64,000 nucleotides of DNA from Vermamoeba vermiformis (taxonomy: Eukaryota), in NCBI GenBank assembly GCA_045837725.1, contig JBEWZL010000064.1, positions 62,001-126,000 of the forward strand, in the 5' to 3' direction. Below are positions 23,336 to 51,400 of this stretch, piece after piece. The notes below the pieces were generated by a model that saw only the letters and a program-made list of their open reading frames with translations, had not been told where the DNA came from and ran no database searches. Every line of letters starts with the position of its first letter. The stretch's first letter is position 1. Position numbers and translations under genes: made by a program.

Positions 23336-26300
23336 ATGCAGAATAGCCCCGCAACGCGAAGATTCGCAATACTATTATTTATAATAGCTGTTTCCGAAAC
23401 AACGGTGGCAAATGTCCAGATCGAGAAGACGTTTCAACTGACATCCGATCGTGCATATTTCTCAACTGTGCAAGCTGGCAACAAGCTCTATTTTATTGGA
23501 GGATACGAGCACAGCGATTATGTCGCTTCCAATGTCATTGACGTATTTAATTTGCAAGATGGAACGCTAGAAAAGCCGCTAAATTTGTCAACACCTCGAG
23601 GCCACGTTTCGTCAATAGTTATCGGTCCGAGGATATACATGGTTGGTGGTATTTCTTACTCTTGCCTTCCTTTTGAGTATTCAAGCGAGAACAACAACTT
23701 CACGACAAACGGAATGACATCCGGACCAACAGTCCGACGACCCATTCGCATGGCTCTCCACGACTCCACACTCACTGTCATTGGAGCCTATTCTGTTGAT
23801 TTCATGAACACAACAACAAAACAATGGACTCACAACGAACAACTCACACGTGTCATGTCACAAGTGTTTGACACGACAACTATTTCACACCACAACTTTG
23901 TATTCGTCGTTGGCGGCAAGAATGCGACATCTCAACAAGAACTGACGAGTGTGTGGGTGCTTGACTCGCCATCAAGTGCGCCAGAAGAATCTCGCGACAA
24001 AGTTGCACCAGTCTCTTCTTCGATGTTCGTTGGGTCTTGGTTCGACGAAGACAACTCAGCAGCGGTGATTCAGTTCTCGAATCAATGCTTGGTGTATCAC
24101 ACCTCAACGCGAGCATGGCTGCAAAGAGACACGAACAACAACTCGATCTCATCAGTGTCGTTCCAAAACAGCACGATGGTGTTCTTCACAGATGGCTATT
24201 GGACAATCGATTGGCATCACATGAACGACGCGTGGACATCACTCGATCAAATCAATTTTGCATTCACAGTTGGTGATCAACTCGTGTTCTCGTCAGGCCA
24301 ACAAATGACCATCGTGACAAGCAATACCTCCGTGACTCAATCAGTCGATATTGGACCGATTGCACTGTCAATGTCAATGTCGTCATCAATATATGTGCTA
24401 GTGGACTCGAGTAGTGCGATCTTCATGTACCACGCCGACACCAAGGAGTTGATTCAAGTTGCTCCAAGTGTCGAAAACTTACAGCCTGTGAGCATATTTA
24501 GAGGCACCGCTTTCATTCACGTTATTCAGAGCCGGGTCACAAGTAGTCAAGAGCTACCACTGCTAATCACCCTCGATGCAAATGGAATAGTTCAATCTTG
24601 GAATATCACGCATACTCCGCTAGTACTGATCGACGACAACTTCTTCACGCTTGACCTCGGTGGATGGTTCTCGTCCACGGCACCAACTGATGTGCATCCA
24701 ATGGGCAGTGCCTTTTCTTCGCCATTCACTTGGACCCAACGAGGCAACCAGCTCTACGTCATGCAAATGCCCTTTTCCCTCAATATTCCTCCTCCTGCTG
24801 CCACTGGGTATACTGCTGTAGACGTGTTCAACTACGGGGAAGGTATCTGGGAGGACTCTATCCCTGGCGTACCGTCACCTGCAAACACTTTTTTACAAGT
24901 AGCTGCACTCGATGAAAGGCTTTGTGTCATTTCAAGAAATACTTTACTACAGTTGAATACCACCGGCGGATGGAACGTTGGGTCATTTGGAGACACAAGT
25001 GTAACGCAACCGCTGGTACATCCAACTTACGTGCCAATTCCTGTGATCAACAACACGGGATATTTCAGAGATACAGCAGATGGGTTTTATATCACCACAA
25101 CAGCTATGAACGTGCAGCACATTTCATCTTCTTCAAGATTGAACTCGCGACAAATTGTTAGCACCAACACTCAGGTTATCCTCTCGCTCACATTAAATGG
25201 GTACTACACGAACCTTGCAGCCTATAACATCACAAGCAACACCTGGATAGGCACACTTTTCGATACCCGACAAGCAATGCTGTCCATAGCGATGTACGAT
25301 GACGTGGTGCTCGCTCTTGGTGATGACGTGGGGTCCCTCAATTATTGGAACATCTATTTCGAACAATGGACGCGCGTGCCCTTCGACAACGCACACGTGC
25401 CTGCTTCAATGTTCACCCTTCAGTTGTCGAACTACAACAGAACAGTGTTGGCGATTGCAGGTGGATATCACAGAACAAGTGGACACTACACTGATGAAGT
25501 CAAGTTCATCACCATCGATATTGAATCATCACCACTTGAAGCCTCTCCATCGACAACTGTCACCACTCCTCTGTCACCACAACAAACAGATTCAAGCCCT
25601 ACTTCCACCGTTGTTATTGCAGTCGTTGTGCCAATCGTGATCGTTGCCGTTGCAGCAGTGGTTCTTGCAATACTGTTGGTGAGAAGAAAACGACAACGAA
25701 GAAGAATACAGTCAGCAGCAACAACGATTGGATTGGAACAACAGTTCGGTGAGTGGTTCGTTCCATTCAGTGACATTCACTTTGGCACTCAGCTCGGTCA
25801 AGGAGCGAACGGTCAAGTGTTCAAAGGCAAGTGGAAGAACACTGATGTTGCGTTGAAAGTGAGCATGACACAAGCGAATCAAAGTGTCATCTCCGAACTG
25901 TCGGTGATGATCAACATGCGACCTCATCCAAATGTCGTGCAACTCTTTGGCTTCAGTGTGCATCCTGAAACGAACAGTGTGATATTGATCATTGAGTACT
26001 GCAACGGCGGATCGTTAGACAAGCAATTGATGGACGAGAATGCACCAGAAATGCCCATCAATCAAAAGCTTCAGTTGTTGCAAGGCATCGCTCGCGGTGT
26101 CGTTCACTTGCACTCGAACAACATTGTGCATCGAGACTTGGCAGCACGCAACGTGTTGTTGCATCAAGGAGAACCAAAACTGACAGACTTTGGCATGTCA
26201 CGCATTGTGGACGATCAACAACAACGAGGCACAACCAAATCCGAACTTGGACCCATTCGATGGATGTCACCTGAGTCACTTGGCAGCAAACAGTACTCGA

Positions 26301-26603
26301 CCAAGTCAGGTTAGTTGTTACCTATAACCCTGTCAATATTGACTAACCAGTGCCTGTTCAGATGTGTGGTCGTTTGGTATTCTCATGTTCGAAGTGCTTG
26401 CACAACAAGAACCTCACCTTGATGAAGATCCAATCGAAGTTGGACGCAAGGTCAGAGACGAAGGACTCACACCTCAACTTCCATCATCGTTGGAGTGCTT
26501 GAGTGACTTCACATCGATCATGAATCAGTGTTGTGCATTTGAGCCGAACTATCGTCCGAGTATCGAACAAGTCCTTCAAAAACTCGAGCAGATTCCTCTG
26601 TAG
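23336..26603 (+). CDS. Single-pass receptor tyrosine-kinase-like protein with kelch-like ectodomain, copy 2
   Basis: Signal peptide, kelch-like motifs (KLYFIGG, LSTPRG, IYMVGG), S/T/P stalk, TM then RRKRQRRR, GQGANG, VALK, HRDLAARN, DFG, GPIRWMSPES; intron 26310-26361. Confidence 0.9.
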
Positions 26604-34482: not shown

Positions 34483-36805
34483 TTACATGGACAACACGTT
34501 GACGCAAATCTCGCACAACAGCTAGTGAAAGAGTTAATAATCATATATTACAACGACAAATTCGTTCAGCTTACCTGTCCGTCCTGCTCGTAAAAGTTGT
34601 CGGCATCGAGCTTGGCCTCGCAGTTATCGCAATTGAAACAATCTCTGTGCAATTGTTTGTCTGACAGCGCAATGTACTCGGCATCAGTAATAGTGCCCAA
34701 GCAACGAGAGCAGACGACTAAGATCACAGGTTAGTGATTATCACCACATTATTACAACCAAGCTTTACGTACTTCTTTCCATGTCGCTCTCACCATCGCT
34801 GAATGTGTCTTCTAAACGACTCGAGTTGCTTCGTGGAGTATCGTTCAAGAAGTTTTCAGAGTTAGATCTGCTCATGCTTCCTCCACCACTGTAACCGCCA
34901 TAACCACCATTGAGACTAGTATTGCTCGGTTGTTTAGTCATAGGCTGTCGTTGAGCTTGAGGTTGAGGAGGCTCTTCATAGCCAAAAGACTCCAACGGGT
35001 CATTGACACGTGACTTGGTCAATGCACCAACGCAAGACTTGCAGTAAGGCTTGTTCTCAACGCTCAAGAACTCCGCGGACAAGTTAACATTGCAACGTGT
35101 GCAAGTGAAGCAAGAGGCGTGCCAGATTTGTCCCAAGGCCTCGAGTTGAGAACCTGTTACTTCTTGACCACATTTGCCGCACTGCGCAAGTACTGTTAGA
35201 AAAGAGTTACAAACAATTGCACCGACATACCTTGCCAGCTCCAAGACAAGTTTGATGGACATAGCGACCGTCTGAGTAGCGCAAGAATGTGCCGGTCATA
35301 CCTTGACCGCAGCGGCAGCAGATATATTTGCTTTTAATGCAGTTAGCGCACTTAATAGCGTCACCATCGGCAAAGAACTAAACTACGTTAATCATTCGAT
35401 CTACCAACCTAGTTTAAAGGTCTTACTTGATTGCTTTGCAATAACTTGGAGCAAGTCGAGCACGTGAAGTGTTCCTAAGAAACGATTAGCCATTATTTTC
35501 GATATTGTTATTAGTCCTTACTTTATGATAATGATGGCCAAGTGCGATCAAGTGTTCGCCCATAATCGGTTGGTGACAGTTGCGGCAAGAAACTCCGCTG
35601 TAGTTCGTATTAGAACATAACCCGTGCAATAAAACCACGTGGTACGTACCTTTGACTGCCACGAGGACTTCTGAGCGGCTGATTGCTGACAGGTTGTGTC
35701 TTGTTTATGTTGCTCAAAGGCAACTTAGGTGCACCAGGGTTAGCCATTGGTGGGGCGACGGGATTTGAGGGAGCATTATTGCCTCCGGTATCTGAACCAA
35801 CGTAAATAACCTGTCAAATAGCTTTTGTAATTACGTACCTGAAAGTGCATCGCGCATGGCACGTTCAATTCTCAAAGGCAGACCGAGACGAGGCCAGTCA
35901 TCGGGCCTCAGAGCGGTCAAATCACCAACTGTTTCAATTTCATTGCGTCTGAATATGTCCATCCACTGTTGAACACTCGCTGCGTCACGACCGAGATTAG
36001 TAGCCACGACTTGCGCGAGTTTCTGAACAGTATCTGCGTCAGTTAGACGTGAGTTGCTCGGGGCTTGGAAATTGATGGAGGGTACAGTTGGTGGTGTTGG
36101 GGTGGGAGTCGGGGCAGGCGTGTGCATTGGAGCAGGTGCTACCTTTGGAGGGGCAGCTGCCATTTTTGGAGGTGCAGCGGTTGGTGTGGCATTGAAATTG
36201 TTGGTGCTTGGTGTCTTTACGGGTGCTTTGGGAAGCCCAGCCGAAGAAGGCTGGCGAACTGGATTTGGGTTGGATTGTTTGGGAGGAGCTGCTGTAGCTG
36301 GCTTTGTGAGATTTGTTTGCGAGGTTTGTGTCGTCATTTTAGGCGTCGATGGCTTGTTCAAGGACTCCACCAGCGCATCTAGTTCTGAAAAAGAATCCAA
36401 AGAAATACCTGAAATAATGAAAATCGATCAATATACAACGCACAATCGCCCATCGTGAATTGTTTGGAGGACTTTAATTCCGTTAATTTGGATACAGCAG
36501 GAAAAATAAATCCAACCGGTTGGTTAATTACTTAATTAAGATTAAAAGTAAAGATAAATATTATTATTATTATTATCTACGGGAGTAATTATTATACCTG
36601 GACTTGGAAGGGAGGGTTCAACAGGACGGCTCGCTGCGGTTTTTGTATTTAACGACGGTACGCCATTAGAACTGCTAGTTGTTCTAGTAAATGCAGGATT
36701 TGTTGCAGGCTTGGAAACTTTAGGAGCAGCAGGTTGGGGGGTGCCCATCTGCGTCTCCGTTAACTTCATCTCCAGATCCGCCAATATATCATCAAAATCA
36801 GTCAT
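34483..36805 (-). CDS. Paxillin-like LIM protein with LD motifs and SAM-like domain
   Basis: FDDILADL and ELDALVESL (LD-like), Pro-rich linker, SAM-like WMDIFRRNEIETVGDL...LGLPLRI, CxxC/H LIM fingers. Confidence 0.8.
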
Positions 36806-38491: not shown

Positions 38492-39494
38492 ATGCAAAAC
38501 AATATTAAAAAAATCGACTTGTTGTCCAGTCTTCGAGGTATAGTATTACTGTGCACAGTAGTTTCGAATTTCCCACACAGAAGTATTTAAATAATTATTT
38601 TAGGGCTAAGAAATGGTATAATTAGCGGCGTTCGTATACGATTGCCATATGTTATGCAAGGCATAATTTATGCCATTATTTTTCGCGACAGAAAGTAAGT
38701 TAGACAGATCATCTACAAAATCGATATTAACCTTCTTTAAACAGACTAGTATCTCGTGTCTCATTGCTGATTAAACAAATGCTATCCCATGGACGAAACT
38801 TGGGTCTATTTGCCCTAATTTACAAATTTATATGCTCAGTTCTGCGGAGCGTGGGAATTACAGGCGGAATCGAAAGCTGGATCGCAGGATTTGCTGGAGG
38901 ATTTTATGCATTTGGCGACAGTAGAGGCATTTCAGGCAGTGTAAATAATCAAATTGTCCTCTATTTGTTTGCCAGGTAAGTTGAAGACAAAGCTGTTGCT
39001 GATCTGAGTTTCATTTTCTAATTGTCGTTCCCTGCAGAGGATTCGAAGGCGCGTTGCGATTGCTAGTAAAACGTAATTATCTACCACAGAAGATGGACAT
39101 TAGGAAGGGCGTTGGGTTCCGCGTGTTTGCTGGGTACGAAAATGAGATCTGGCTCTTAACTGTTAACGATCCTAATCATAACCTTTCTATAGATTTACTC
39201 TAGCACTTATATTGTATTTAACTGAATATCACTCGGAGGTTTTGCGACCTGCGTTCATGTCTACTATGGACTATATTTATTATGAATCTGATTCTGGGCC
39301 TGTAATGCCGAGCTATTCCACCAAGTTTGCTCCGTTTATTTGGTACGTGATCGCATTAATATATTAGTCCCATATATGCTTGATGTATTGACGCCTGTAC
39401 TATTTGTAGCCTCATTGTATTTACTTTGATTGGAGGACTTATAAGCAAGGATTTGCGACTTGAAAATATGCTCAATAGAATGCCCTGGCTGTAA
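38492..39494 (+). CDS. PXMP4: Peroxisomal membrane protein 4 (Tim17 superfamily)
   Basis: RGLRNG...GVRIRLP, HGRNLGLFALIYK, AGGFYAFG, SVNNQIVLYLFAR, STMDYIY. Confidence 0.88.
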
Positions 39495-40288
39495 ATTGTA
39501 ATTCTCGATTCTATTTAATGTTTGATTAATAAACTTATCCACGATTCCACCATCCTGTCAACTTGAAGATCTGATCCACAAATTAAACAACTACAAATAT
39601 TGCAAGTAGGGCAGAGCATGCCGTGGGTCCATATTCTCGCTGATGTGTCACAGTTCCGAGATAGAGGGAGATAAAATTGTTAAAAGTTGTTTGTGAACGA
39701 ATTTTACAACAACAAAATCTTTTTGGTTCATTCGTAATTATATTTCACTATCAAAGCAACAAAGTAGTTCTTTAGTGCGTTGATTTACAAGGTATGTTAA
39801 ATTTATAACTTTGCCTGCAGCGGACAGTCGGTTGTTTGTTACATCCAGCAAGTTTAATGTCTAATCGAGAGTTAATGGCGGAAATTTCAATTTGCATACG
39901 CTTCGTAAATAATATGATGTAATACAAATTCACTAGACACCAACTCTCCCGTACCATTAACGAATCTATTATTTTTTATATTAATCCTTCTATTTGGTTT
40001 TAATCTAATCCAATATAACGTACATTTTCGATATAATTTGATTTGAAGCTTATATAACGGAAACTCGCTGGATTTAAATTTCAGATGCGTTGGAAACACG
40101 TGCACATTCTAACTGGGACTGTCCGCTTGTTAAATTATTCAAAATTAAATTTGAAGCTAATTTGTTGTCAAGAATCAGTTTATATACTTCAGTAAATCTT
40201 AAAGATTTTTGTTAATTTTATTGCCGATTCGAAAAAGTTGTCGGCGAGAAATCTCCCTAGTATTGCTTGTACTAACAAAAATAATTAG

Positions 40289-43207
40289 ATGGCATCACTT
40301 TTGAAGAGTATCGATGCTGCTCTTGAAGCAGCTGCTCAACGCGAGATGGACATGGAAGAGGAGGCCATGCGCAAGTATCTTGACGATCTCGAAGAGCAAG
40401 AGCGTCTCGAGCGTGAAATGAAAGAGCGTATTGCTCGTCGTAAAGCCGAGGCAGCTGCTAAGCGTGAGCGCGAAGAACAAGAGCAGATGGAAAAGTTCAA
40501 GCAAGAAGAAGAGGAGCGCGAACGTAATGAACGTGCCATGAAAGAGCGCATTGATAAGAGAAAGGCTGAACTCGCTGCAAAGCGTGAACAAGAGGAGCGT
40601 GAACAAATGGACAAGTTCCGTCAAGAAGAAGAAGAGCGTGAACGCGCTGAAAAGTCTATGCGTGAACGCATTGAGAAGAGAAAGGCCGAGCTTGCCTCAA
40701 AGAAAGAGCAACAAGAACAAGAACAAATGGACTTGTTCAAGCAAGAAGAAGAAGAGCGTGCAAAGATCGAGAAGTCCATGAAGGAGCGCATCGAGAGGAG
40801 AAAGGCTGAGCTGTCCTCTAAGAAAGAACTCGATGAGAACTCTCAAATGGAGATCTTCAAGCAAGAAGAGGAAGAACGTGCTCGTGCTGAAAAGGCCATG
40901 AAAGAGCGCATTGCTCAACGCAAGGCCGAACTTGCCAACAAGAAGGAACAACAAGAACGCGAGCAAATGGAGCTCTTCAAGCAAGAAGAAGAGGAACGTG
41001 AACGCGCTGAACGTTCTATGAAAGAGCGCATTGAACGCAGAAAGGCTGAGCTTGCTGCTCGTAAAGAGAGACAAGAACAGGAACAAATGGAAATGTTCAA
41101 GCAAGAAGAAGAGGAACGCAATCGCGCCGAAAGATCCATGAAGGAGCGCATCGCTCAACGCAAGGCCGAACTTGCCAACAAGAAGGAACAGCAAGAGCGT
41201 GAACAGATGGAGATGTTCAAGCAAGAAGAAGAGGAGCGTGAACGCGCTGAGAAGGCCATGAAGGAGCGCATCGCTCAACGCAAGGCTGAACTTGCCAACA
41301 AGAAGGAACAACAAGAGAAGGAACAAATGGACTTGTTCCGTCAGGAAGAGGAAGAGCGTGCTCGTGCTGAGAAGGCCATGAAGGAGCGTATTGCCCAACG
41401 CAAGGCTGAGTTGCAAGCCAAGAAAGAACAGGAAGAGCGCGAACAAATGGAGCTCTTTAGACAAGAAGAGGAGGAACGCGCCAAGATCGAGAAGTCCATG
41501 AAAGAACGCATCGAAAAGAGAAAGGCTGAGCTCTCTGCCAAGAAGGAACTTGATGAGAACTCTCAAATGGAGATCTTCAAGCAAGAAGAGGAAGAACGTG
41601 CTCGTGCTGAAAAGGCCATGAAAGAACGCATTGCTCAACGCAAGGCCGAACTTGCTAACAAGAAGGAACAACAAGAGAAGGAGCAAATGGAATTGTTCCG
41701 TCAAGAAGAAGAGGAACGTGAACGCGCTGAAAAGTCTATGCGCGAAAGAATTGAACGCAGAAAGGCTGAGCTTGCTGCTAAGAAAGAGCAACAAGAGAAG
41801 GAGCAAATGGACTTGTTCCGCCAAGAAGAAGAAGAACGTTCCCGCGCCGAAAGAGCCATGAAGGAGCGCATCGCTCAACGAAAGGCTGAGTTGCAAGCCA
41901 AGAAAGAACAGGAAGAGCGTGAGCAAATGGAGCTCTTCAGACAAGAAGAGGAGGAACGCAACCGTTCTGAAAAGGCCATGAAGGAGCGCATTGAGAAGAG
42001 AAAGGCCGAGCTTGCTGCCAAGCGCGAGCAAGAAGAGCGCGATCAAATGGACTTATTCAAGCAAGAAGAAGAAGAGCGTGCCAAGATCGAGAAGTCCATG
42101 AAAGAACGCATCGAAAAGAGAAAGGCCGAGCTCTCTGCCAAGAAGGAGCTTGATGAGAAGTCTCAAATGGAGATCTTCAGACAAGAGGAAGAGGAACGTG
42201 CTCGTGCTGAAAAGGCCATGAAAGAACGCATCGCTCAACGCAAAGCTGAATTGCAAGCCAAGAAAGAAGCTGAAGAGCGCGAACAAATGGAAAAGTTCCG
42301 TCGCGAAGAAGATGAAGCTAGTAACTCAGAAAAGGCCATGCGCGAAAGAATCGAAAAGCGACGTGCTGAACTCGCCGCTAAGAAAGAACAAGAGGAGCGC
42401 GAGCAGATGGAGAAGTTCCGTCAAGAGGAAGAAGAGCGCGAACGCAATGAACGTGCCATGAAGGAGCGCATTGCTCAACGCAAGGCTGAATTGCAAGCTA
42501 AGAAGGAGCAAGAAGAACAAGAGCAAATGAACAGATTCAAGCAAGAGGAAGAAGAGCGCGAACGCAATGAACGCGCCATGAAGGAGCGCATTGAGAAGCG
42601 AAAGGCCGAGCTTGCTGCCAAGAAGGAAGCCGAAGAGCGTGAACAAATGAACAAGTTCCGCCAAGAGGAAGAAGAACGCGAGAGGACTGAAAAGGCCATG
42701 CGCGAACGTATTGCCCAACGCAAAGCTGAACTCGCCGCCAAGAAGGAGGCCGAAGAGCGTGCTCAGATGGAAAAGTTCAAGTCTGAAGAAGATGAGGCCT
42801 CTCGTACTGAACGTGAAATGCGTGAGCGCATCGCTCAACGCAAGGCTGAGTTGCAAGCCAAGAAAGAGGCTGAAGAACGTGCTCAAATGGAGAAGTTCCG
42901 TCAAGAAGAGGCTGAGCGCGAGAAGACTGACAAGGCCATGAAAGAGCGCATTGAAAAGAGAAAGGCCGAGCTCGCTGCCAAGAAGGAAGCCGAAGAGCGC
43001 GAACAAATGGAGAGGTACAAGCGCGAAGAAGAAGAGAAGAATAAGGCTGAAGCTTCGCTCAAAGAGAAGATCGCCAAAAAGAAGGAAGAATTGGCTGCTA
43101 AGAAACAACGCGAGCGTGAAGCTTTGATGGAGCGATACAGAGCACGCATGAATAAGACCGACAAGCAAGCTGAAGATAATTTGAGCAACTTGTTGAAGAA
43201 GCAGTAA
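40289..43207 (+). CDS. 972-aa E/R/K-rich helical protein made of 40-aa tandem repeats
   Basis: Uninterrupted ORF; unit QMEKFKQEEEERERNERAMKERIDKRKAELAAKREQEERE; strong AAG/CGT/CGC/GCC/GCT codon bias like myosin II. Confidence 0.9.
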   Translation: MASLLKSIDAALEAAAQREMDMEEEAMRKYLDDLEEQERLEREMKERIARRKAEAAAKREREEQEQMEKFKQEEEERERNERAMKERIDKRKAELAAKREQEEREQMDKFRQEEEERERAEKSMRERIEKRKAELASKKEQQEQEQMDLFKQEEEERAKIEKSMKERIERRKAELSSKKELDENSQMEIFKQEEEERARAEKAMKERIAQRKAELANKKEQQEREQMELFKQEEEERERAERSMKERIERRKAELAARKERQEQEQMEMFKQEEEERNRAERSMKERIAQRKAELANKKEQQEREQMEMFKQEEEERERAEKAMKERIAQRKAELANKKEQQEKEQMDLFRQEEEERARAEKAMKERIAQRKAELQAKKEQEEREQMELFRQEEEERAKIEKSMKERIEKRKAELSAKKELDENSQMEIFKQEEEERARAEKAMKERIAQRKAELANKKEQQEKEQMELFRQEEEERERAEKSMRERIERRKAELAAKKEQQEKEQMDLFRQEEEERSRAERAMKERIAQRKAELQAKKEQEEREQMELFRQEEEERNRSEKAMKERIEKRKAELAAKREQEERDQMDLFKQEEEERAKIEKSMKERIEKRKAELSAKKELDEKSQMEIFRQEEEERARAEKAMKERIAQRKAELQAKKEAEEREQMEKFRREEDEASNSEKAMRERIEKRRAELAAKKEQEEREQMEKFRQEEEERERNERAMKERIAQRKAELQAKKEQEEQEQMNRFKQEEEERERNERAMKERIEKRKAELAAKKEAEEREQMNKFRQEEEERERTEKAMRERIAQRKAELAAKKEAEERAQMEKFKSEEDEASRTEREMRERIAQRKAELQAKKEAEERAQMEKFRQEEAEREKTDKAMKERIEKRKAELAAKKEAEEREQMERYKREEEEKNKAEASLKEKIAKKKEELAAKKQREREALMERYRARMNKTDKQAEDNLSNLLKKQ
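40360..43140 (+). repeat. 120-bp coding tandem repeat, 22 well-conserved plus 2 degenerate units
   Basis: CARATG recurs every 120 nt from ~40484 to ~43004 without indels. Confidence 0.95.
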
Positions 43208-43756
43208 GAATCTCGATCAACAAGATCTCGAACCAATGTCTAAATAGTCACCTCCTGTACCTTTTTAGTATATAAATTATTTAATCGCTACATGGTTTGT
43301 AACGCGCAGAAATAGAAACCTTTTTGGGCACGGGTGATCTGCTGTCAGCTCGTCATTTTGGAGATCTCGCGCCGAAATTGAACGCTATCGAAGCAAAGGT
43401 TCTTCTCGAGAACTAATCTGACATGACCAAGTATAGTAAGCCATCTTGAATTAGAAAAAACGTTTTTGGACAAGCACGTGGAAAAAGATATCTACGAGGG
43501 CGGAAACATCACAACACAATCATTTGCCGTCCCAATAATAGAACACAATACACCATTCATTGGTAGGTATTTGCTCTTCTAATATGTCTTGACCCAGAAA
43601 TCATGAATCGATGTAATTATGTAATGCCCTGTTTATTCAATGGTCAGATGGACGGTTCCCAAGTCCAAAAGCGCTAGTAATTGTGATTACGCTTCCAAAA
43701 ATTTCAATTATCTCGAGGTAAATAGCTAATTCCCTCCATTTTCCAGATCGTACGGG

Positions 43757-45370
43757 ATGGCGCTTTCAAAACCAGAACTCCCGTTCTTCCACGCACCATG
43801 CAGCGTCACCGTGCATCCCCATACAGGAGATTCTCACTTTAGATTTGCCTTGGAACTGTTTGTGAACATATTTAAGGGCGCATCTAAAATATACGGTCCC
43901 CTTTACTTCTTTTCGGCCCTCACAAACGGAAAAGGTCCCGTTTATTGGGTCAAAAGAACAATACCCAGTATTATACGAAGCAGCTTATTCCTAGGTAATT
44001 ACGCCTTTATCATCAAAAAATCGATTTAAATACAGATCCTGCGATTACGGATCGCAATAATTATCGTACTAATTTTTAATGCGGTAGCTGTTTATGGATT
44101 TTTATATGGAAGAGTATCATGCTTTATCATGAGCATTTTGAAGGGAAATTATCGCATTGCTTACTTTTTGGGATCGTACATTGGCGCACTTGTTTCTATT
44201 TTGATAGAAAAGCCCTTTAGAAGAATCGAACTGGCTGTATATGTCATGAATCAAGCTGCCGAAACAACCTTCCGAATGTTAGTAACAAGAGGTACGTTAT
44301 CACTTTCGTTTTGTGAGCCACATATAATTTATATTGCCTAACACAGGTTACATGAAACCAATCAAATACGGCGTTGTAATGTTATTTTCAATTGGCCTGG
44401 CAATTCTCACGTACTTCCATAAATTTGATCGTGACTCTCTGGGCAGCAACATCAACGGATTGATGAAAGTATTCGTGGGCGTTGAAGACGAGCGCGATTT
44501 TGTTGAAAAGCGATTGCACAAAGCATTTGGAGCTGTACGTGACACTGCAGTGCGACTGTACTCGCGAGGAAAGAAACAGCACGCAAATGACGGTGATCAA
44601 GAGGGCAATTTTTTCACGGGTACGTTACAGATTGATATGTAATTAGCGATGCTGAAATTGACCTAATTAGGCCGTCACAAATGCTGTTCACACAAATGCA
44701 GCTGTTTTGAATACACGACCGTGGGTTTCACGAAAGGATTTTCACTCGGATACACTTTCAAGGAATAAGTCTTAGCTACTTCATTCTCCAGCAATGAACC
44801 ATTTATCAATACCTGTTACAGAGTCTTTTAGCTATTGCACCCACGCTGTTCAATCCGAAAGTGTTGACGATTAAGTCAAAGCGACGAGCAGCTCTGACCA
44901 AAGCATTCGGCAAAAAATCATTGCAGTTCGGTTTATTTGTGGCTCTCCTATCAGGCTTGGTTCGTTTAGTGAACTGCTTGTTGAGACGAGTACGCGGTGT
45001 GGAGGACGGAGTTAATGCGGTGGTGTCTGGACTGATTGCAGGCACATCAACAGCGCTAGCCAAGAGTGTAGAACTGTCCATGTACATTTTGGCAAAGGCT
45101 GGTGAGGCCGTCTTCAGAGCCCTAGTCTCGCGCAAGTATTTGCCTTCCGTGCCATATTGGGATGCTATCTTGTACGCACTTGCCACTGCCATTCTGTTCT
45201 ACGCCTCAACTTTCGAACCATTCAACTTGCGTCCATCGTACGTGGCCTTTTTGTACCGTGTCAGCAGTGGTAGCTTTCGTAGATTCTTCAACTCTAGCAA
45301 GGGATTGCGAGATGAATTTTTGGCCCATTGGTTTCCGGGCATGATTAGTCCCAAGCTTGCTGCTTTCTAA
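43757..45370 (+). CDS. TMEM135: TMEM135-like peroxisomal membrane protein
   Basis: PCSVTVHP, IYGPLY, RSSLFL, ILIEKPFRRIELAVY, RHKCCSH, FEPFNLRPSY; one intron needs a non-canonical donor. Confidence 0.85.
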
Positions 45371-45463: not shown

Positions 45464-48400
45464 TTATTTGCCGAACAAAGCAGAGATGGTGCGGGCCTTC
45501 TCTTGCAAGTCTTCACGTTCCAAAGCAAGACGGGAAGCCTCGTTACGAGCACGTTCGACTTCGTCCTTCAAGCCACGGATTTCGTCCTTGAGCTTGTTAA
45601 CCTCAAGTTCAGCCTTGCGCTTTTCGGCTTCAGCGTTGGCAGCACGATCTTGCTCCTCAACGAGTCTCTTCTTGGCGGTCTTAAGCTCGCCTTCAACTCT
45701 CTTCTTGGAGTCGGCGTCCTTGGCACCACCAGACTTGAGCAATTGAAGCTGCTTACGGGCATCAGCGGCTTCAGTCTCGGCACGTCGGCGAGCCTTCTCG
45801 AGCTTGGCGATTTGGTTGTTGAAGGTAGCAACCTTGGTGTTGAGGTCCTCAAAGTTGGCTTCAGCTTGACGCTTGGAGCGTTCAGCGTTGGCACGGCTGA
45901 TGCGCTCTTCCTCCAACAAGTCGCGGAGCTCAATGGACTCACGCTCGGCTTGTCTCTTGGCCTCCTCGGTGGATTCGCGGTTGCTAATCTCACGATCGAG
46001 AGCCTTGCGCATATCCTCGAGGGCGGATTGGTGAGTGCGCTTGAAGTTCTCCAACTCAGCCTTGCGGTCCTCGGCGTCATCAAGAGCGTCCTTCAAGTCC
46101 TCAACGGTCAAAGTGAGCTCACGGATGGTTTGCTCAGCCTTGGCCTTGACGCGTTCAGCATCATCGGCAACGTCGCGGTACTCCTCGAGTTGAACCTCGA
46201 TGGCCTTGCGGGACTTCTCAGCAGCAACGCGCAACTTGTGTTCTTGCTCGATCTGCTCAGTAAGGGCGTCAGCCTCTTCTTGGAACTTCCAGGCGAGTCT
46301 CTCTTGCTCGTCCTTCTCAAGAGCGAGTTGTTCGAGCTTCTCCTTGAGCAAGCGCAATTCCTTGGCAGCCTTCTTGCGCTCCTTCTCGGCCTTGGACTTG
46401 CCCTTGTCACCACCGTCGAGTTGAGTCTTCAAGGTCTTAAGATCTTGCTCGAACTTCTTGGCGTTACGATCGGCTTCAGTGCGAGCCTTCTTCTCGTTGT
46501 CAAGAGCACGCTTGGTGTCGGCGAGTTCCTTCTCGATCTCACGCTTGATCTCCTCGAATCTGTCACGAGCCTCAGATTCAGAGTCCAATTGCTTGCGCAA
46601 CTCAGAGATCTCAAGATCCTTGCGGTGCTTGATCTCTTCTAAGTCAGCACGAGCGTCCTCGGCCTCTTCGAGTTGATCACGGAGGTCTTGGAGTTCGACT
46701 TCAAGAGCACGTTGAGTCTTGCTGAAACCATCGCGAGCAGAGGCGCTTTCGTCGACCATATCCTTCAAGTCAGCGACCTCAGCTTCGAGAGCCTTGACGC
46801 GCTTCTCGGCGTTGACACGAGCAGCACGTTCGCGCTCAATTTGGTCCTTGTAGTCCTCAATCTCGTGTTGGATGCGACGAGCCTCTTCGTCAGAGAGCTT
46901 GCCACCCTTGCCTTGGTTGGCCTTGGCTTCCTTGAGCTCCTTCTCGAGCTTCTTGAGCTTCTTGTCAGCGGCAGCCTTCTCCTTTTGGGCGTTCTCCAAG
47001 CGACCAGCCAAGTCGTCAAGGTCAGATTGCAACTTCTTGCTGTTCTTGTCCTTGTTGGCTCTTTCACGAGCTTCGTCGTCCAATTGGCGGTGAGCATCCT
47101 CCAACTCGCGTTCGAGAGCGCGACGGGCCTCTTCGGCTCTTTCGCGGTTCTCACGTTCGCGGTCAGCAGCGCGGCGAGCCTCATCGGCTTCCATCTCAGC
47201 GCGGCGACGGAGTTCTTCAGCCTCTTCCAAAGCTTCAGAAGCACCGGCGTTGTCACGGAGGTCACGCAACTCGTCTTCCAAGTCGCGGACTTGCTTCTCC
47301 AAGCGAGAGCGGGCAGAGCCGTCCTCGTTGGCACGCTCAGACAACTCTTCGAGTTCACCCTCAAGTTGTTTGCGGATGCGATCGAAGTTGGCGTTCTTGT
47401 TTTGCAAGTCAGCGTTTTGGGCTTGGAGTTGATCGAGTTGGTCTTGGAGACGACGCAAGAGACCCTCTTGTTGGTCGACGGTGGCAGATCTGTCGGCAAC
47501 AGCCTTCTTGAGGTCCTTGAGTTCACCTTCGGCCTTCTTGCGAGCCTTGTCGGCCTTGCCAAGTTCCTTTTGGGCCTCATCAAGACGGCCAGCCAAGTCG
47601 TCGAGGTCGGCCTTCATCTTGTTGTTTTGACGTTGGGCGTCCTTCAACTTGTTGCCATCCTTCTCGTAGGCACCGCGCAACTCATCAAGTTCAGATTCCA
47701 ACTTCTTGATGGCTTGCTCAGCACGGCTGCGAGCATCGGCTTGGTCGTCGAGTTGACGTCTGAGTTGGTCAGCCTCGGACTCGTACTTGGCCTTGACGGC
47801 AGCAAGTTCCTTGTTGTCGTTGAGGTGAGCATCCATCTCGTCTCTGAGATCTTCCAACTCGTCGTGGAGGGACTTGGCCTTCTTGTCGGCGGCGGCACGG
47901 TTGGCCTTCTCCTCCTCGAGGGCGTCTTCGACCTCATTCAAACGGCTTTCAAGATCCTTGCGAACCTTGTCAGCAGCAGCGCGGGCCTTAGCCTCAGCTT
48001 CGAGATCGGCTTGGGCGGCATCGAGATCAGCAGCCAAACGACGAGCCTCCTTGTCCAAGCTTTGGGCGCGGGCGGATTCTTCGTCCAATTGGCGTTGAGC
48101 AGTCTTCAAGTCGGCTTCAAGCTTGCCCAAGCTCTTGCTGTTGCCTTGCAAGCCCTTCTCGGCGTTAGCCAAGTCGGCACGAGCATCTTCCAAGTCTTCC
48201 TCGAGTTGGCGGCGGAGCTTCTCGAGTTGTTGGTTCTTGCGTTGTTCCTCATCGAATCTTTCTTGGAGACTCTTGAGTTCAGCAGCCAATTGAGCCTTTT
48301 CACGCTCCAACTTTTGGATCTTGGCGTTGGCTTCATCGAGTTGACGCTTCAAGTCTTCAACAAGAGAGTCCAACTTGGTCTTGGCAGAGTAGAGTTGTTC

Positions 48401-51400
48401 GCGTTCCTTGCTTTCGGCTTCCAATTGAGCGTGAACATCTTCCAAGTCTTCTTGGGCTTGCTTCAATTTGCGAGCCAAGTCAACCTTGTCCTTGCCAGCG
48501 CTGTCCAAACCGCTAGAAGCAGAGTCGAGAGCGGATTGCAAGCTCTTCTTCTCCTTCTCCAAGTTAGCCTTGACCTTGTTGAGGGCATCAAGCTCGTCGC
48601 GGAGCTTGTTCATGTTGGCAGTCAAGTTCTTGATGCTATCCTCAGCAGAAGCACGGGATTGAGATTGGTCATCAAGAGATCTCTTGGTGTTGGCCAACTC
48701 GTTTTCAAGACCCTTCAAAGCCTTCTCGAGTTGAGTGCGGTTCTTGTTCTCTTCGTTGAACTTGGTGGTCAAGTCATCAAGTTCCTTTTGCAACTTGGCG
48801 CGTTGCTTCATCAAAGAGTCCTTAGCAGCGCTCTCGCTGTCCTTGGTGTTCAAGGCCTCGTCGAGATCGTGCTCGGCTTGAGCCTTAGCCTTGCGCAATT
48901 GTTCGATGATATTCTCATCTTCCTCCACGCGGGTACGCAAGTCCTTGAGGTCTTCGTCGAGTCTCTTCTTCTCAGAGAGAAGCTTGTTCTTCTCGGCGAC
49001 TTCACGATCAAGATCTTGAGCCAAAGCTCTGGCCTTGGAGTCGAAGTTAGCCTTAGCTTGTTCAGTGTTGCCCAAAAGGGAGAGCTTGTCCTTAAGCTCG
49101 TCTTCCAAGTCGGTAACACGTCGGTTGAGAGCCTTGAGTTGCTCCTCGGCTTGGTCCTTGCCGCCTTGCAATTCAGAAGCCTTTTGCTTGGTGGCGAACA
49201 AGTTCTTCTCCAACTCGTCGATCTTGCCCTTCAAGTTGTCGATGTTCTTGGTCAAACCGTTCTTGCTATCAAGCTCGGCCTTGAGTTGCTCTTGCAACTT
49301 CTTGATTTCTTCCTCACGCTTGGAGATTTCCTCCTCGAAGTTGCGGTGCTTGAGTAAAGGTCTAGCCTTAGTGAACAATCTGTACCAGGGCCAGTTCTTG
49401 AACTCCAACCAAGCACGGATGTTGCGTTGGATAACTTGAGCAGCGACAGACTTCTCTCTCTTCTTCTTGTAAGCCTTACGGGCGACGAAACCACGAGCAG
49501 CGGCTTGGATGGCAGGGATCAATTCACCAACCTTGCGCTCACGAGCTTCTTCAATAGCAGCCAATTGACCGGCCTTGAAGAAGATCTTGGTGAGACCCAT
49601 ACGGTATTGCTCGGGGTCGACGACCTTTTGGCTGACCATCAAATCAATCAAAGATTGAGTGGCGGCCTTAGAGTCGGCAGCACGACGAGGAACGTTGCTG
49701 GAGAGAATGTAGTATCTCTTCAAGAAGTCAGGGTAGAGAACTCTGTTGGGCCAACCCTTACGAGAGATTCTGATACCTTCCAAGACACCGTTGCAACGGA
49801 GTTGTTCAAGGACGATGCGGTCCTCGACCTTGCCGGGTTGTTGGGCGTGGTTGGGCAAGATGCAACGAATGAAGTGAGGGCTGGTGGAACCCAAAGTCTC
49901 CATCAAGTCGTTCAATTGCTCACGGTATTGAGCAGCGACAGTGACGAAAGAAGCACCCTTAGGGCCCTTGGAGGCGCGAGAGGATGAGGAAGAGCCAGCA
50001 GGCAGGTCCTTGCTCAAAGAGTACTCAGAGAACCATTGGCTCAAGTACTTGTCCTTAGCCTCAATGATCGAGGTTTCGAGATCGAGGGCCAAGGGGTCCT
50101 TGTTCTTCTCCAACCAGAGGGTGGTGTCGTATTCGACTTCACCGGCATAGTGTTGAACAGAGAAGTTGGTTTCCTTGCCGAGTTGGGGCTTGCGGAACTT
50201 GGGGTGTCTGCCTTGGTGGTTTTCGTTCAACTTGGTGAGGAAAGATTGATCGGTAGCCTTGGGGAAGACGGATTCTTCGTCCAACAAGATGAGGATACCC
50301 TTGGGTCTCTTCTCGATCAAATCGATAGTGGCCTGAGAGTCCATACCGAAGTCAATGAATTGCCAATCGATCTTCTCTCTCTTGTATTCCTCTTGTTCGA
50401 GGGTGAACATGTGGTGGTTGAAGAATTGTTGCAACTTCTCGTTGGTGAAGTTAATGCACAATTGTTCGAAGCTGTTGTTCTTGAAGATTTCGAAACCGGC
50501 AATATCCAAAATACCAATGAAGTTATCCTTGGGGACGACTTGGAGGGTGGAGTTGAGCTTCTCGACGACCCACAAGAACATACGACCGTAGAGGGCCTTG
50601 CAGAGAGCGTCACGAGAGGCACGAGCCTTGTCGAGGTTGAGGGTGGTTTGGACGAATTCCTTGTCTTTACCGACACGGATACGAGGACGCAACAAACCGT
50701 CTTCGAGTTTCTTGGGCTCAACCTTGAGCATTTCAGCGGCGGCTTCGAGTTCAACGCGATCCTTGAGCGAGCAAGCATCAGCACCTTCGGCTTGGAAGGG
50801 CAAGTTACCCATGTGAAGGATGGCGGAGATGACACGCCACATGTGGTCACGTTCGTCGGCATTGAAACCAAGAACTTCCAAGGCAGCAAGAGTGGCCTCG
50901 AATTCCTTGGCGTCATCCATACCGTTGACGGTGGTGCAGCCAGAGTTGTTCAAGAAGTTGTAGTCAGAGGCAGTGGTGAGCTTGTACTTGGCCTTGTCAG
51001 CGCTGGACAAACCAGTAAGGAGTTGGTAGAAGATGTGGAAGCTACGCTCTCCTTGACCTTGAGAGACGACACGAGACTTCTCGAGCAAGTAGACGACGAT
51101 CGAAGCACCAGAGATGAAACCGGATTTGTCGAAGGTGATCTTGATGAATTTACCGAAACGAGAAGAGTTGTTGTTCTTGTTGGTCTTGGCGTTACCAAGA
51201 GCTTCCAAGAGAGGGTTGGCTTGGAGCAATTGCTTCTCCAATTGACCCTCAGCACCAGATCGACCGGCAATGGAAGCCAAGTATTGAATAACCTTCTTGG
51301 TGTTTTCGGTCTTACCAGCACCAGACTCACCACTAAAGAAAAGATTTGTGAGTTATAATTTTCTCAACAGGAGGCAAAAAGATTTTTCCAAATCTAGATT

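What the first reader, a model, noticed from the sequence alone, without database searches (positions are those of the whole stretch)
40289..43207. Candidate actin-strand ruler: 972-aa helix with an exact 40-residue period, 2.3 kb from myosin II
Seen: about 24 units of exactly 120 bp without indels; by eye no Pro or Gly; i/i+4 E-K/R patterning with a sparse fixed hydrophobic stripe (M2, F5, M19, I23, L30); codon bias matching the myosin II gene; no globular domain. Known: ER/K-rich chains form single alpha-helices, and tropomyosin's actin-binding pseudo-repeat is about 39-40 residues. Inference: a ~145 nm helix (972 x 0.15 nm) whose 40-aa (~6 nm, 11-turn) unit could contact one actin subunit each, i.e. 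a tropomyosin/nebulin-like filament binder or myosin-filament partner. I do not recognise the family.
Basis: partly seen in the sequence, partly recalled or inferred. Interest (0 to 1): 0.8.

Follow-up and report, generated by a model that had tools for sequence, protein, structure and literature searches.

The report
Exact 40-residue charged helix protein
This is a real, expressed amoeba-type gene for a 972-residue protein that is almost entirely one long charged helix made of 23 identical-length units, and its relatives elsewhere carry an actin-binding "headpiece", which hints at, but does not prove, a role along actin filaments.

Summary
ORF 40289-43207 (+) encodes 972 aa: a 26-aa cap, 23 units of exactly 40 aa with no indel, and a truncated 24th unit. 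It has no Pro, Gly, Cys, His, Trp or Val. RNA contigs show a 497-nt intron in the 5' UTR, an in-frame stop upstream, and an end near 43281, so the CDS is whole and has no globular domain.

All 36 listed strain differences in the CDS are synonymous. The protein looks like an ER/K single alpha-helix and not a heptad coiled coil. A conserved Met/Phe/Ile/Leu plus basic patch recurs every 40 residues on one face.

Pfam, PDB and ESM Atlas give nothing. A profile of the unit finds an unannotated eukaryotic family, including Arcella intermedia. Six of 10 metagenome loci and 2 of 16 database proteins end in a villin headpiece. The window protein has none.

The actin link is therefore supported only at family level. 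One unit per actin subunit, and any tie to the myosin II gene, remain untested; a TMEM135-like gene lies between the two. Homologue periods are mostly 40, with some 39 and 38.

The parts
39757..39789 (+). 3' end of a non-coding first exon (5' UTR); its true start was not determined
   Evidence: RNA-run contigs join 39789 to 40287 (X15 record 1, and X4). An in-frame stop lies 9 codons before the ATG in the spliced form.
39790..40286 (+). 497-nt GT..AG intron in the 5' UTR, ending 2 nt before the start codon
   Evidence: The joint 39789>40287 skips 497 nt, has GT..AG ends, and appears in 2 of the 4 runs laid.
40289..43207 (+). Complete coding sequence, 972 codons plus stop, in a single exon
   Evidence: all 36 listed strain variants are synonymous
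40289..40366 (+). 26-residue N-terminal cap (MASLLKSIDAALEAAAQ...), predicted helical
40367..43126 (+). 23 tandem units of exactly 120 bp / 40 aa (consensus MExFxQEEEERxRxEKAMKERIAxRKAELAAKKEQEEREQ)
   Evidence: Gap-free alignment A1; TRF; spacing 22 of 22 = 40; a single helix in AlphaFold2 models
43127..43204 (+). Truncated 24th unit and C-terminal tail (MERYRARMNKTDKQAEDNLSNLLKKQ). The tail motif Y..MN.T.K.AED.L.N.L is shared with the headpiece-less relative on L008.
43208..43281 (+). 3' UTR; transcript contigs of two runs end at 43281
   Evidence: X4 record 14 and X7 record 18 both end at 43281; depth is 0 in 43414-43647
40727..40846 (+). First of three variant units ending ...KKELDE(N/K)SQ (the others are 41447-41566 and 42047-42166). 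They mark block duplications of several units and are possible hinge points.
   Evidence: The single-sequence AlphaFold2 model breaks the helix only at aa 179-183, inside this unit, with pLDDT about 62.

Best explanation
The gene encodes a rod-shaped protein that is essentially one uninterrupted, highly charged alpha-helix of about 140 nm. The helix is of the ER/K single-alpha-helix type and is stabilised by i/i+4 Glu-Lys/Arg pairs. Unlike ordinary single-helix spacers, it shows the same conserved patch every 40 residues (about 6 nm) on one face. The patch is a basic amphipathic segment, AM(K/R)ERIxxRKxELxxKK, plus an MxxF/Y motif, and the patches are separated by acidic stretches. The protein belongs to an unannotated eukaryotic repeat family whose other members end in an F-actin-binding villin headpiece. 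My best reading is that the helix lies along an actin filament, with each unit offering one equivalent contact per subunit of a long-pitch strand. This would make it a side-binder, stabiliser or length-setter, a single-helix counterpart of nebulin or tropomyosin. The window protein would be a headpiece-less form of this family. Shown: gene model, expression, purifying selection, exact period, helical and non-heptad character, family membership, and headpiece fusions in relatives. Inferred: that the periodic ligand is F-actin, and the 1:1 stoichiometry. I put about 0.85 on the structural part; the confidence figure given here covers the whole statement including actin side-binding.
For: The gene is real and constrained. 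It is spliced and polyexonic at the 5' UTR in RNA-run contigs, has an upstream in-frame stop, shows 36 of 36 synonymous strain variants, and has unit-to-unit dN/dS of 0.14 with saturated dS. It is helical and not a heptad coiled coil. E+K+R make up 56.9% of residues. Net i/i+4 opposite-charge pairs are 3.4 per 16-residue window, against 1.4 in the myosin II tail of the same window. The best heptad a/d occupancy reaches 0.625 in 0% of windows, against 43% for the myosin tail. Hydrophobic periodicity power is 67.9 at 3.636 (=40/11) and 0.1 at 3.5; the myosin tail gives 101 at 3.5. AlphaFold2 gives helix 2-178 and 184-265 at pLDDT 89.9, and one helix 2-119 at pLDDT 94.1 when the alignment is supplied. 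Conservation is position-specific, which a passive spacer would not need: M1, Y/F4, E8, M18, R21, I22, R25, E28 and L29 persist at 40-50% identity in distant relatives. The modal spacing in relatives is exactly 40, in 59 of 81 cases. Actin link: a villin headpiece sits at the C-terminus of relatives P0018 and P0021 and of L002, L004, L006, L007, L009 and L010. L002 is a 758-aa ORF with about 15 exact 40-aa units, a linker and a headpiece. Geometry, from my own arithmetic on recalled filament parameters: 40 x 0.15 nm = 6.0 nm. The axial repeat along one actin strand is 5.5 nm, and the path is about 5.8-6.0 nm at 4-5 nm radius. A 99.0 degrees-per-residue stripe is what a helix following a right-handed long-pitch path would need. 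Precedent: nebulin binds one actin subunit per simple repeat and uses a conserved Tyr and charged residues (passages of bioRxiv 10.1101/2021.10.06.463400).
Against: The window protein has no headpiece or any other known actin-binding domain: Pfam finds 0 families, and tblastn of 7 headpiece tails finds nothing in or beside the gene. The relative that shares its C-terminal tail (L008) also lacks a headpiece. The repeat also occurs in two VIT-VWA-type proteins (P0017, L003), an architecture with no known actin link, which fits a general rod or oligomerisation module at least as well. Some relatives have 39- or 38-residue units, or Pro/Gly in the variable part of the unit (P0016, L008). There is no sequence similarity to tropomyosin, nebulin or any solved structure. 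The geometric fit is loose, and 40/11 is also close to the natural twist of a free alpha-helix. The headpiece-bearing loci L004, L006, L007 and L010 are close variants of one another, so the independent headpiece-bearing genes number about five, not eight.
Confidence: 0.35

Rival explanations
1. Self-associating rod. The alternating acidic and basic 40-residue charge blocks and the sparse straight hydrophobic stripe drive staggered or antiparallel side-by-side association of the helices into dimers, bundles or fibres. In headpiece-bearing relatives this would make the protein bivalent, a long actin cross-linker. In the window protein it would form a cytoskeletal fibre or scaffold of its own.
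For: Positions 16-33 of the unit carry net +4.9 and the rest net -5.4. A crude charge-matching score is repulsive for in-register parallel pairing (-0.089) and best at staggers of about 17 or 23 residues (+0.047) or antiparallel (+0.040). The conserved stripe M1/F4/M18/I22/L29 lies within about 100 degrees of arc, and its 3.636 periodicity keeps it straight. The module's presence in both headpiece and VIT-VWA contexts suits a general oligomerisation rod.
Against: Only 5 of 40 positions are strongly hydrophobic, with gaps of 12-14 residues, which is far below a real coiled coil. No heptad or hendecad signal is present. The charge-matching score is a simple calculation with small amplitudes.
Confidence: 0.25
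2. Passive single-alpha-helix spacer or constant-force spring. The helix only sets a distance of about 140 nm between whatever binds the short N-terminal cap and the conserved C-terminal tail, as single-helix segments do in myosins, INCENP or drebrin. On this reading the 40-residue period is a by-product of growth by unit duplication.
For: ER/K composition and i/i+4 pairing. A continuous helix in AlphaFold2. The C-terminal tail motif is shared with L008. Single-helix domains acting as linkers and springs are described in the abstracts of PMC4183817 and PMC5378345 (listing).
Against: A spacer needs composition, not position-specific residues. Here individual Met, Phe/Tyr, Ile, Leu, Arg and Lys positions and the exact unit length persist at 40-50% identity and under saturated synonymous divergence. 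Twenty-three units show no indel although dS is about 1.5.
Confidence: 0.2
3. Array of binding sites for a different repeated ligand. Candidates are calmodulin-like light chains on each basic amphipathic segment, microtubules (as for the INCENP single helix), nucleic acid (as for the CAF-1 KER helix), or acidic membranes.
For: Each unit holds a basic amphipathic 17-mer. Single helices that bind microtubules or DNA directly are reported in the abstracts of PMC4571873 and PMC10335832 (listing).
Against: No IQ motif is visible by inspection of the consensus. Six nanometres does not match the 4/8 nm tubulin lattice (recalled). Net charge is slightly negative, -12 over 920 aa. The only recurrent partner domain in relatives is an actin-binding one.
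Confidence: 0.1
4. Non-functional low-complexity ORF or an assembly artefact of a DNA tandem repeat.
For: The opposite strand also carries long open frames (449 and 280 aa), as expected over a codon-periodic repeat.
Against: The transcript is spliced in the + sense. Near-identical sequence is found in runs of 10 studies. All 36 variants are synonymous in the + frame. Relatives exist in other eukaryotes.
Confidence: 0.01

Closest known systems
ER/K single alpha-helix (SAH) domains (myosin VI/X, INCENP, drebrin, CAF-1 KER region)
   Same: It is very rich in E/K/R, has dense i/i+4 opposite-charge pairs, lacks Pro/Gly, has no heptad seam, and is predicted as one long isolated helix. Some known single helices bind a polymer directly: INCENP binds microtubules and CAF-1 binds DNA with length selectivity (abstracts seen in the listing).
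   Different: Known single-helix domains are segments of 30-200 residues inside multidomain proteins and, as I recall, are conserved in composition and not by position. Here the whole 972-aa protein is the helix, it is built from an exact 40-residue unit, and it carries a conserved hydrophobic/basic stripe.
Nebulin / nebulette simple repeats
   Same: Both have many tandem helical units of about one actin-subunit length. Both have a conserved aromatic residue and conserved charged residues in each unit. Both show higher-order super-repeats; a 360-bp period is seen here. Nebulin binds one actin subunit per unit and acts as a ruler (passages of 10.1101/2021.10.06.463400).
   Different: There is no sequence similarity and no SDxxYK motif (and inspection). 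Nebulin units are 31-38 aa, fold as helix-kink-helix-loop, and absorb length differences in the loop. Here the units are exactly 40 aa with no loop. Actin binding is not shown here.
Tropomyosin
   Same: Both are elongated helical proteins with a quasi-repeat of about 39-40 residues that matches the actin long-pitch strand (period recalled, not from a call).
   Different: Tropomyosin is a two-chain heptad coiled coil with seven periods. This protein has no 3.5-residue signal and low a/d occupancy, no Pfam tropomyosin match, and 23 units.
Villin-headpiece proteins (villin, dematin, abLIM, supervillin)
   Same: Relatives of this protein end in a bona fide headpiece (PF02209), as those proteins do.
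   Different: The window protein has no headpiece. The N-terminal parts of the relatives are the 40-residue repeat array, not gelsolin, LIM or dematin-type domains. The only named headpiece proteins found with the L002 C-terminus were ordinary gelsolin-headpiece proteins at E about 1e-4.

Membership tests
ER/K single alpha-helix (SAH) | High E+K+R content with dense i to i+4 (and i+3) opposite-charge pairs | tested here: met
   E+K+R is 56.9%. There are 294 opposite against 34 same-charge i/i+4 pairs in 920 aa. The count is 3.4 net pairs per 16-residue window, against 1.4 in the myosin tail control.
ER/K single alpha-helix (SAH) | No continuous hydrophobic seam | tested here: inconclusive
   There is no heptad seam. 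However, a sparse conserved stripe of 5 of 40 positions, within about 100 degrees of arc, is present.
ER/K single alpha-helix (SAH) | Monomeric, stable helix in solution | not testable with these tools
   AlphaFold2 predicts a helix. The oligomeric state needs circular dichroism plus AUC or SEC-MALS.
Two-stranded coiled coil / tropomyosin (PF00261) | Heptad (3.5-residue) hydrophobic periodicity with filled a/d positions | tested here: not met
   Power at 3.5 is 0.1, against 101 in the myosin II tail. 0% of 28-residue windows reach a/d occupancy of 0.625, against 43% in the tail.
Two-stranded coiled coil / tropomyosin (PF00261) | Match to the family profile | tested here: not met
   Pfam scan of the whole protein finds 0 families at E<=1. 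HMMER's bias filter may suppress weak matches.
Nebulin repeat (PF00880) | 31-38-aa unit with an SDxxYK motif; match to the family profile | tested here: not met
   No Pfam match. The unit is 40 aa and its consensus has no SDxxYK.
Villin-headpiece protein (PF02209) | C-terminal headpiece domain | tested here: not met
   It is absent from the window protein. No tblastn hit of 7 headpiece tails falls in or just after the gene. It is present in relatives.
The 40-residue 'MxxY..AMKERI..RKxEL' repeat family defined here | Tandem units matching the profile with modal spacing of 40 | tested here: met
   The window protein has 23 units and 22 of 22 spacings = 40. In relatives, 59 of 81 spacings = 40.

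The most novel reading that the evidence does not exclude
Amoebae and other microbial eukaryotes have a previously unrecognised class of actin-filament side-binders built from a single alpha-helix. One exact 40-residue unit contacts each subunit of a long-pitch strand. Some forms are anchored by a villin headpiece; others, like this one, are headpiece-less. The number of units (23 here, about 127 nm of filament) would set or stabilise filament length, making this a non-muscle, non-metazoan analogue of nebulin or tropomyosin that arose independently.
Probability: 0.3. Interest if true: 0.85.

Novelty: new variant of a known kind. Interest (0 to 1): 0.66.

Why it matters
Length-setting and strand-stabilising actin partners are known mainly from animal muscle (nebulin, tropomyosin). 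A single-helix protein with an exact, selected 6-nm period, from a family tied to villin headpieces, would be a simple and testable model of how a helix can read a filament lattice.

It would also add a cytoskeletal component to amoeboid cells. Even if actin is not the ligand, the protein would still be useful. As far as I recall it would be among the longest and most regular natural ER/K helices, and the position-specific conservation shows it does more than act as a spacer.

The family has no Pfam model and no named member in the databases searched here. Defining it would therefore annotate a set of currently hypothetical proteins.

Tried and rejected
- **Whole-protein searches found nothing.** Pfam gave 0 families at E<=1, PDB sequences gave 0, and the word-indexed protein search gave 0 of 7998 candidates at E<=1e-3. 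ESM Atlas had no usable hit for the window protein or for L002. Composition-biased queries are penalised by these tools, so these blanks are weak evidence.
- **Profile A3 against PDB.** The only row was a designed helical repeat at E 9.4, which is meaningless.
- **Homodimer prediction.** Two copies of a 5-unit fragment returned 'no answer' (score 0.00, controls not run). This counts neither for nor against self-association.
- **Raw RNA reads of run X23.** No reads laid, so this is no test.
- **Depth differences between this gene and its neighbours.** I did not use them as a measure of expression, because the runs were chosen with this gene.
- **Prokaryotic genomes and viral contigs.** Pattern matches (590 and 262 stretches) included no relative confirmed by tblastn.
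- **Search with the C-terminal 199 residues of L002.** It returned only 2 ordinary gelsolin-headpiece proteins at E about 1e-4.
- **A headpiece exon downstream of the ORF.** I looked for one and rejected the idea. The transcript ends at about 43281, depth is zero beyond, and tblastn finds nothing.
- **Weak tblastn hits of headpiece tails elsewhere in the window.** Hits at 54.2-54.4 kb and 12.5 kb (E 0.2-0.7) were not confirmed by Pfam.
- **Literature.** Four full-text searches turned up no paper describing this repeat or joining a villin headpiece to a single-helix array. None of the 15 listed papers contains 'villin headpiece', and searches gave nothing relevant. One Amoebozoa actin-binding-protein review has no mention of headpiece, villin or repeat. 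Supplementary files could not be read.
- **Recalled families rejected by inspection only.** These were IQ motifs, a WH2-like reading of the C-terminal ...NLLKKQ, trypanosome 38-aa microtubule-associated repeats, and 11-mer lipid-binding repeats.
Full report
**1. The observation**

The ORF at 40289-43207 (+) is real and encodes 972 residues. Tandem Repeats Finder reports a 120-bp period over 40487-43035 and a 360-bp super-period over 40496-42291.

Printed in register, the protein has three parts:
- a 26-residue cap;
- 23 units of exactly 40 residues (aa 27-946);
- a 24th unit cut short after 26 residues.

The 23 units align in 40 gap-free columns at 79% mean column identity. M1, E10, E20, I22 and E28 are invariant. 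F4, E7, E8, E15, M18, R21, R25, K26, A27, L29, K32, E34, E37 and Q40 are at least 90% conserved. There is no Pro, Gly, Cys, His, Trp or Val.

**2. Gene model and expression**

Near-identical sequence is held by runs from 10 studies. I laid contigs of one run recorded as RNA-seq (X15) and two runs whose RNA label is the tool's guess (X4, X7).

Two of these runs (X15, X4) join 39789 to 40287 across a 497-nt GT..AG intron. Contigs of two runs (X4, X7) end at 43281, and depth is zero in 43414-43647.

In the spliced form an in-frame stop lies nine codons before the ATG at 40289. The intron is therefore in the 5' UTR, and the 972-residue protein is the whole product. There is no hidden globular domain and no downstream headpiece exon. 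The raw-read RNA run X23 laid no reads, so it is no test.

**3. Selection**

All 36 strain differences listed inside the CDS are synonymous; 35 fall at third codon positions and one at a first position.

Between the 22 full units, identity is 77%, 80% and 50% at codon positions 1, 2 and 3. Median dN is 0.22, dS is 1.54 and dN/dS is 0.14, over 122 usable of 231 pairs. The array is old, and both its sequence and its length are held by selection.

Codon usage (RSCU over nine amino acids) correlates with other ORFs of the window as follows:

| ORF compared | Correlation |
|---|---|
| myosin II | 0.90 |
| mitochondrial carrier | 0.72 |
| Piezo fragment | 0.48 |
| kelch-kinase ORFs | 0.01 and 0.10 |

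It is what strongly expressed genes share, not evidence of a functional tie.

**4. Physical character**

E+K+R make up 56.9% of residues. I/i+4 opposite-charge pairs outnumber same-charge pairs 294 to 34.

I used the coiled-coil tail of the myosin II gene in the same window as a positive control:

| Measure | Repeat protein | Myosin II tail |
|---|---|---|
| Hydrophobic periodicity power at 3.5 residues | 0.1 | 101 |
| Power at 3.636 (=40/11) | 67.9 | 0.4 |
| 28-residue windows with best heptad a/d occupancy >= 0.625 | 0% | 43% |

AlphaFold2 gives helix 2-178 and 184-265 from the single sequence (pLDDT 89.9, pTM 0.32). For three units with the family alignment it gives one helix 2-119 (pLDDT 94.1).

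The only predicted break, at aa 179-183, lies in one of three variant units ending ...ELDE(N/K)SQ.

Within a unit the strongly hydrophobic positions 1, 4, 18, 22 and 29 fall within about 100 degrees of arc. Positions 16-33 carry net +4.9 and the remainder net -5.4. The helix therefore shows a basic, partly hydrophobic patch every 6 nm, with acidic stretches between patches.

**5. Relatives**

The whole protein finds nothing in Pfam, PDB, the word-indexed protein database or the ESM Atlas.

A 40-column profile of the units, run against 1.84 billion representatives, finds 15 proteins at E<=1e-3 with a best E of 7e-10. All are short fragments that show the same unit.

A broadened profile finds 16 proteins in the 5.8-billion set, and a metagenome scan gives 10 loci. 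The architectures are:
- **Repeat array, linker, C-terminal villin headpiece.** This is seen in P0018 and P0021 and in L002, L004, L006, L007, L009 and L010, with PF02209 E-values of 2.6e-11 to 6.4e-15. L002 is a 758-residue open frame with about 15 exact 40-residue units. L004, L006, L007 and L010 are close variants of each other, so there are about five independent headpiece-bearing genes.
- **Repeats inside a VIT-VWA-CBM20 protein.** This is P0017. A similar C-terminal region follows the repeats on L003.
- **Repeats plus an unrelated shared C-terminus.** These are P0016 and P0019.
- **A headpiece-less form, L008.** Its last residues share the motif Y..MN.T.K.AED.L.N.L with the window protein, so it looks like an orthologue type.

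Two hits are transcripts of the amoebozoan Arcella intermedia. The window also carries a class II myosin, so an amoebozoan-like source is plausible. No relative was confirmed in prokaryotic genomes or viral contigs.

Across homologues, 81 consecutive anchor spacings break down as follows:

| Spacing (residues) | Count |
|---|---|
| 40 | 59 |
| 39 | 8 |
| 38 | 1 |
| 29 | 1 |
| 55-116 (missed or interrupted units) | 12 |

A few relatives have Pro or Gly in the variable stretch between the MxxY motif and the AMKERI segment (P0016, L008).

**6. Surroundings**

- Upstream (38.5-39.5 kb, +) lies a Tim17/Pmp24-family gene with short GT..AG introns.
- Downstream (43.7-45.4 kb, +) lies a TMEM135-like gene.
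- The myosin II ORF follows on the opposite strand at 45464-51280, and its first ~200 residues lie in at least one further exon.

Nothing links the repeat gene to myosin II beyond distance, which carries little weight in a eukaryote. No other copy of the unit is in the window.

**7. How it most likely works**

A passive single-helix spacer needs only composition. Here specific Met, Phe/Tyr, Ile, Leu, Arg and Lys positions and the unit length are conserved at 40-50% identity. The units themselves are therefore probably binding sites, or self-association sites, with a 6-nm period.

The only recurrent partner domain in the family is an F-actin-binding headpiece. The 6.0-nm unit is also close to the path length per subunit along an actin long-pitch strand: 5.5 nm axially, and about 5.8-6.0 nm at 4-5 nm radius. 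This is my arithmetic on recalled filament parameters.

I therefore favour a helix that lies along F-actin with one unit per subunit, at confidence 0.35. Nebulin is the functional precedent, with one simple repeat per actin subunit and a conserved Tyr and charges.

The rivals are:
- **A staggered, self-associating rod (0.25).** It is favoured by the charge blocks and by the VIT-VWA context.
- **A passive spacer or spring (0.2).**
- **Another periodic ligand (0.1).**
- **An artefact (0.01).**

The window protein lacks a headpiece. If it binds actin, it must do so through the units alone, and this is the main weakness of the favoured reading.

**8. Comparison and novelty**

The protein behaves like an ER/K single alpha-helix in composition and predicted structure. 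It differs in being a whole protein built from an exact unit with a conserved stripe.

It is not a member of the tropomyosin, nebulin or headpiece families; each was tested and not met. The family has no Pfam model, and four literature searches found no description of it. Supplementary files were not readable.

I rate it a new variant of a known kind, with interest 0.66. Confirmed actin-strand binding would raise that substantially.

Noticed in passing
window 20007-22361 and 23336-26314 (+): Two neighbouring ORFs combine N-terminal kelch repeats with a C-terminal Tyr/Ser-Thr-type protein kinase domain. This is a tandem pair of kelch-kinase genes whose codon usage is very different from that of the repeat gene and myosin II.
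   Followed up: partly
window 38500-39545 (+) and 43747-45370 (+): Both genes flanking the repeat gene belong to the Tim17/Pmp24 superfamily. Upstream is a Pmp24-like gene with five 50-67-nt introns. Downstream is a TMEM135-like gene with an N-terminal Cys-rich region plus a Tim17 domain.
   Followed up: partly
window 45464-51280 (-): The class II myosin heavy chain ORF (1938 aa) starts aligning at about residue 207 of solved myosin II motors. The first ~200 residues must therefore lie in one or more exons further upstream, beyond 51280.
   Followed up: no
window 60720-63592 (-): ORF fragments match Piezo transmembrane helical units (PF23188, PF15917), so a Piezo-type channel gene lies here.
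   Followed up: no
window 40727-40846, 41447-41566, 42047-42166: Three variant units end in ...KKELDE(N/K)SQ and are each followed by an MEIF unit. This shows growth by duplication of multi-unit blocks. The single-sequence AlphaFold2 model breaks the helix only at the first of them (aa 179-183), so they may be hinges.
   Followed up: partly
P0002-P0005 (metagenome proteins): Four close relatives (about 80% identical to the window unit) each start at M1 of a unit and run into AT-rich nonsense after residue 29-33. P0002 and P0004 are each reported on a 5885-bp longest contig. This suggests a species in which every unit is followed by an intron at the same position.
   Followed up: no
P0017 and L003:390-929: The 40-residue repeat is inserted between the linker and the C-terminal QQF(D/N)GSW-type region of a VIT-VWA(-CBM20) protein. 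This is a second, unexpected context for the module.
   Followed up: partly
window 40882-43036 (loose ends and inserted letters): Contigs of runs X4 and X7 run from this gene into other E/R/K/Q-rich coding sequence that is not in the window. The organism therefore probably has at least one more ER/K-rich repeat gene, which assemblers confuse with this one.
   Followed up: no
window 34765-35262 (-): An ORF with a LIM domain (PF00412, E 4.6e-13) lies 5 kb upstream. No link to the repeat gene was found.
   Followed up: no
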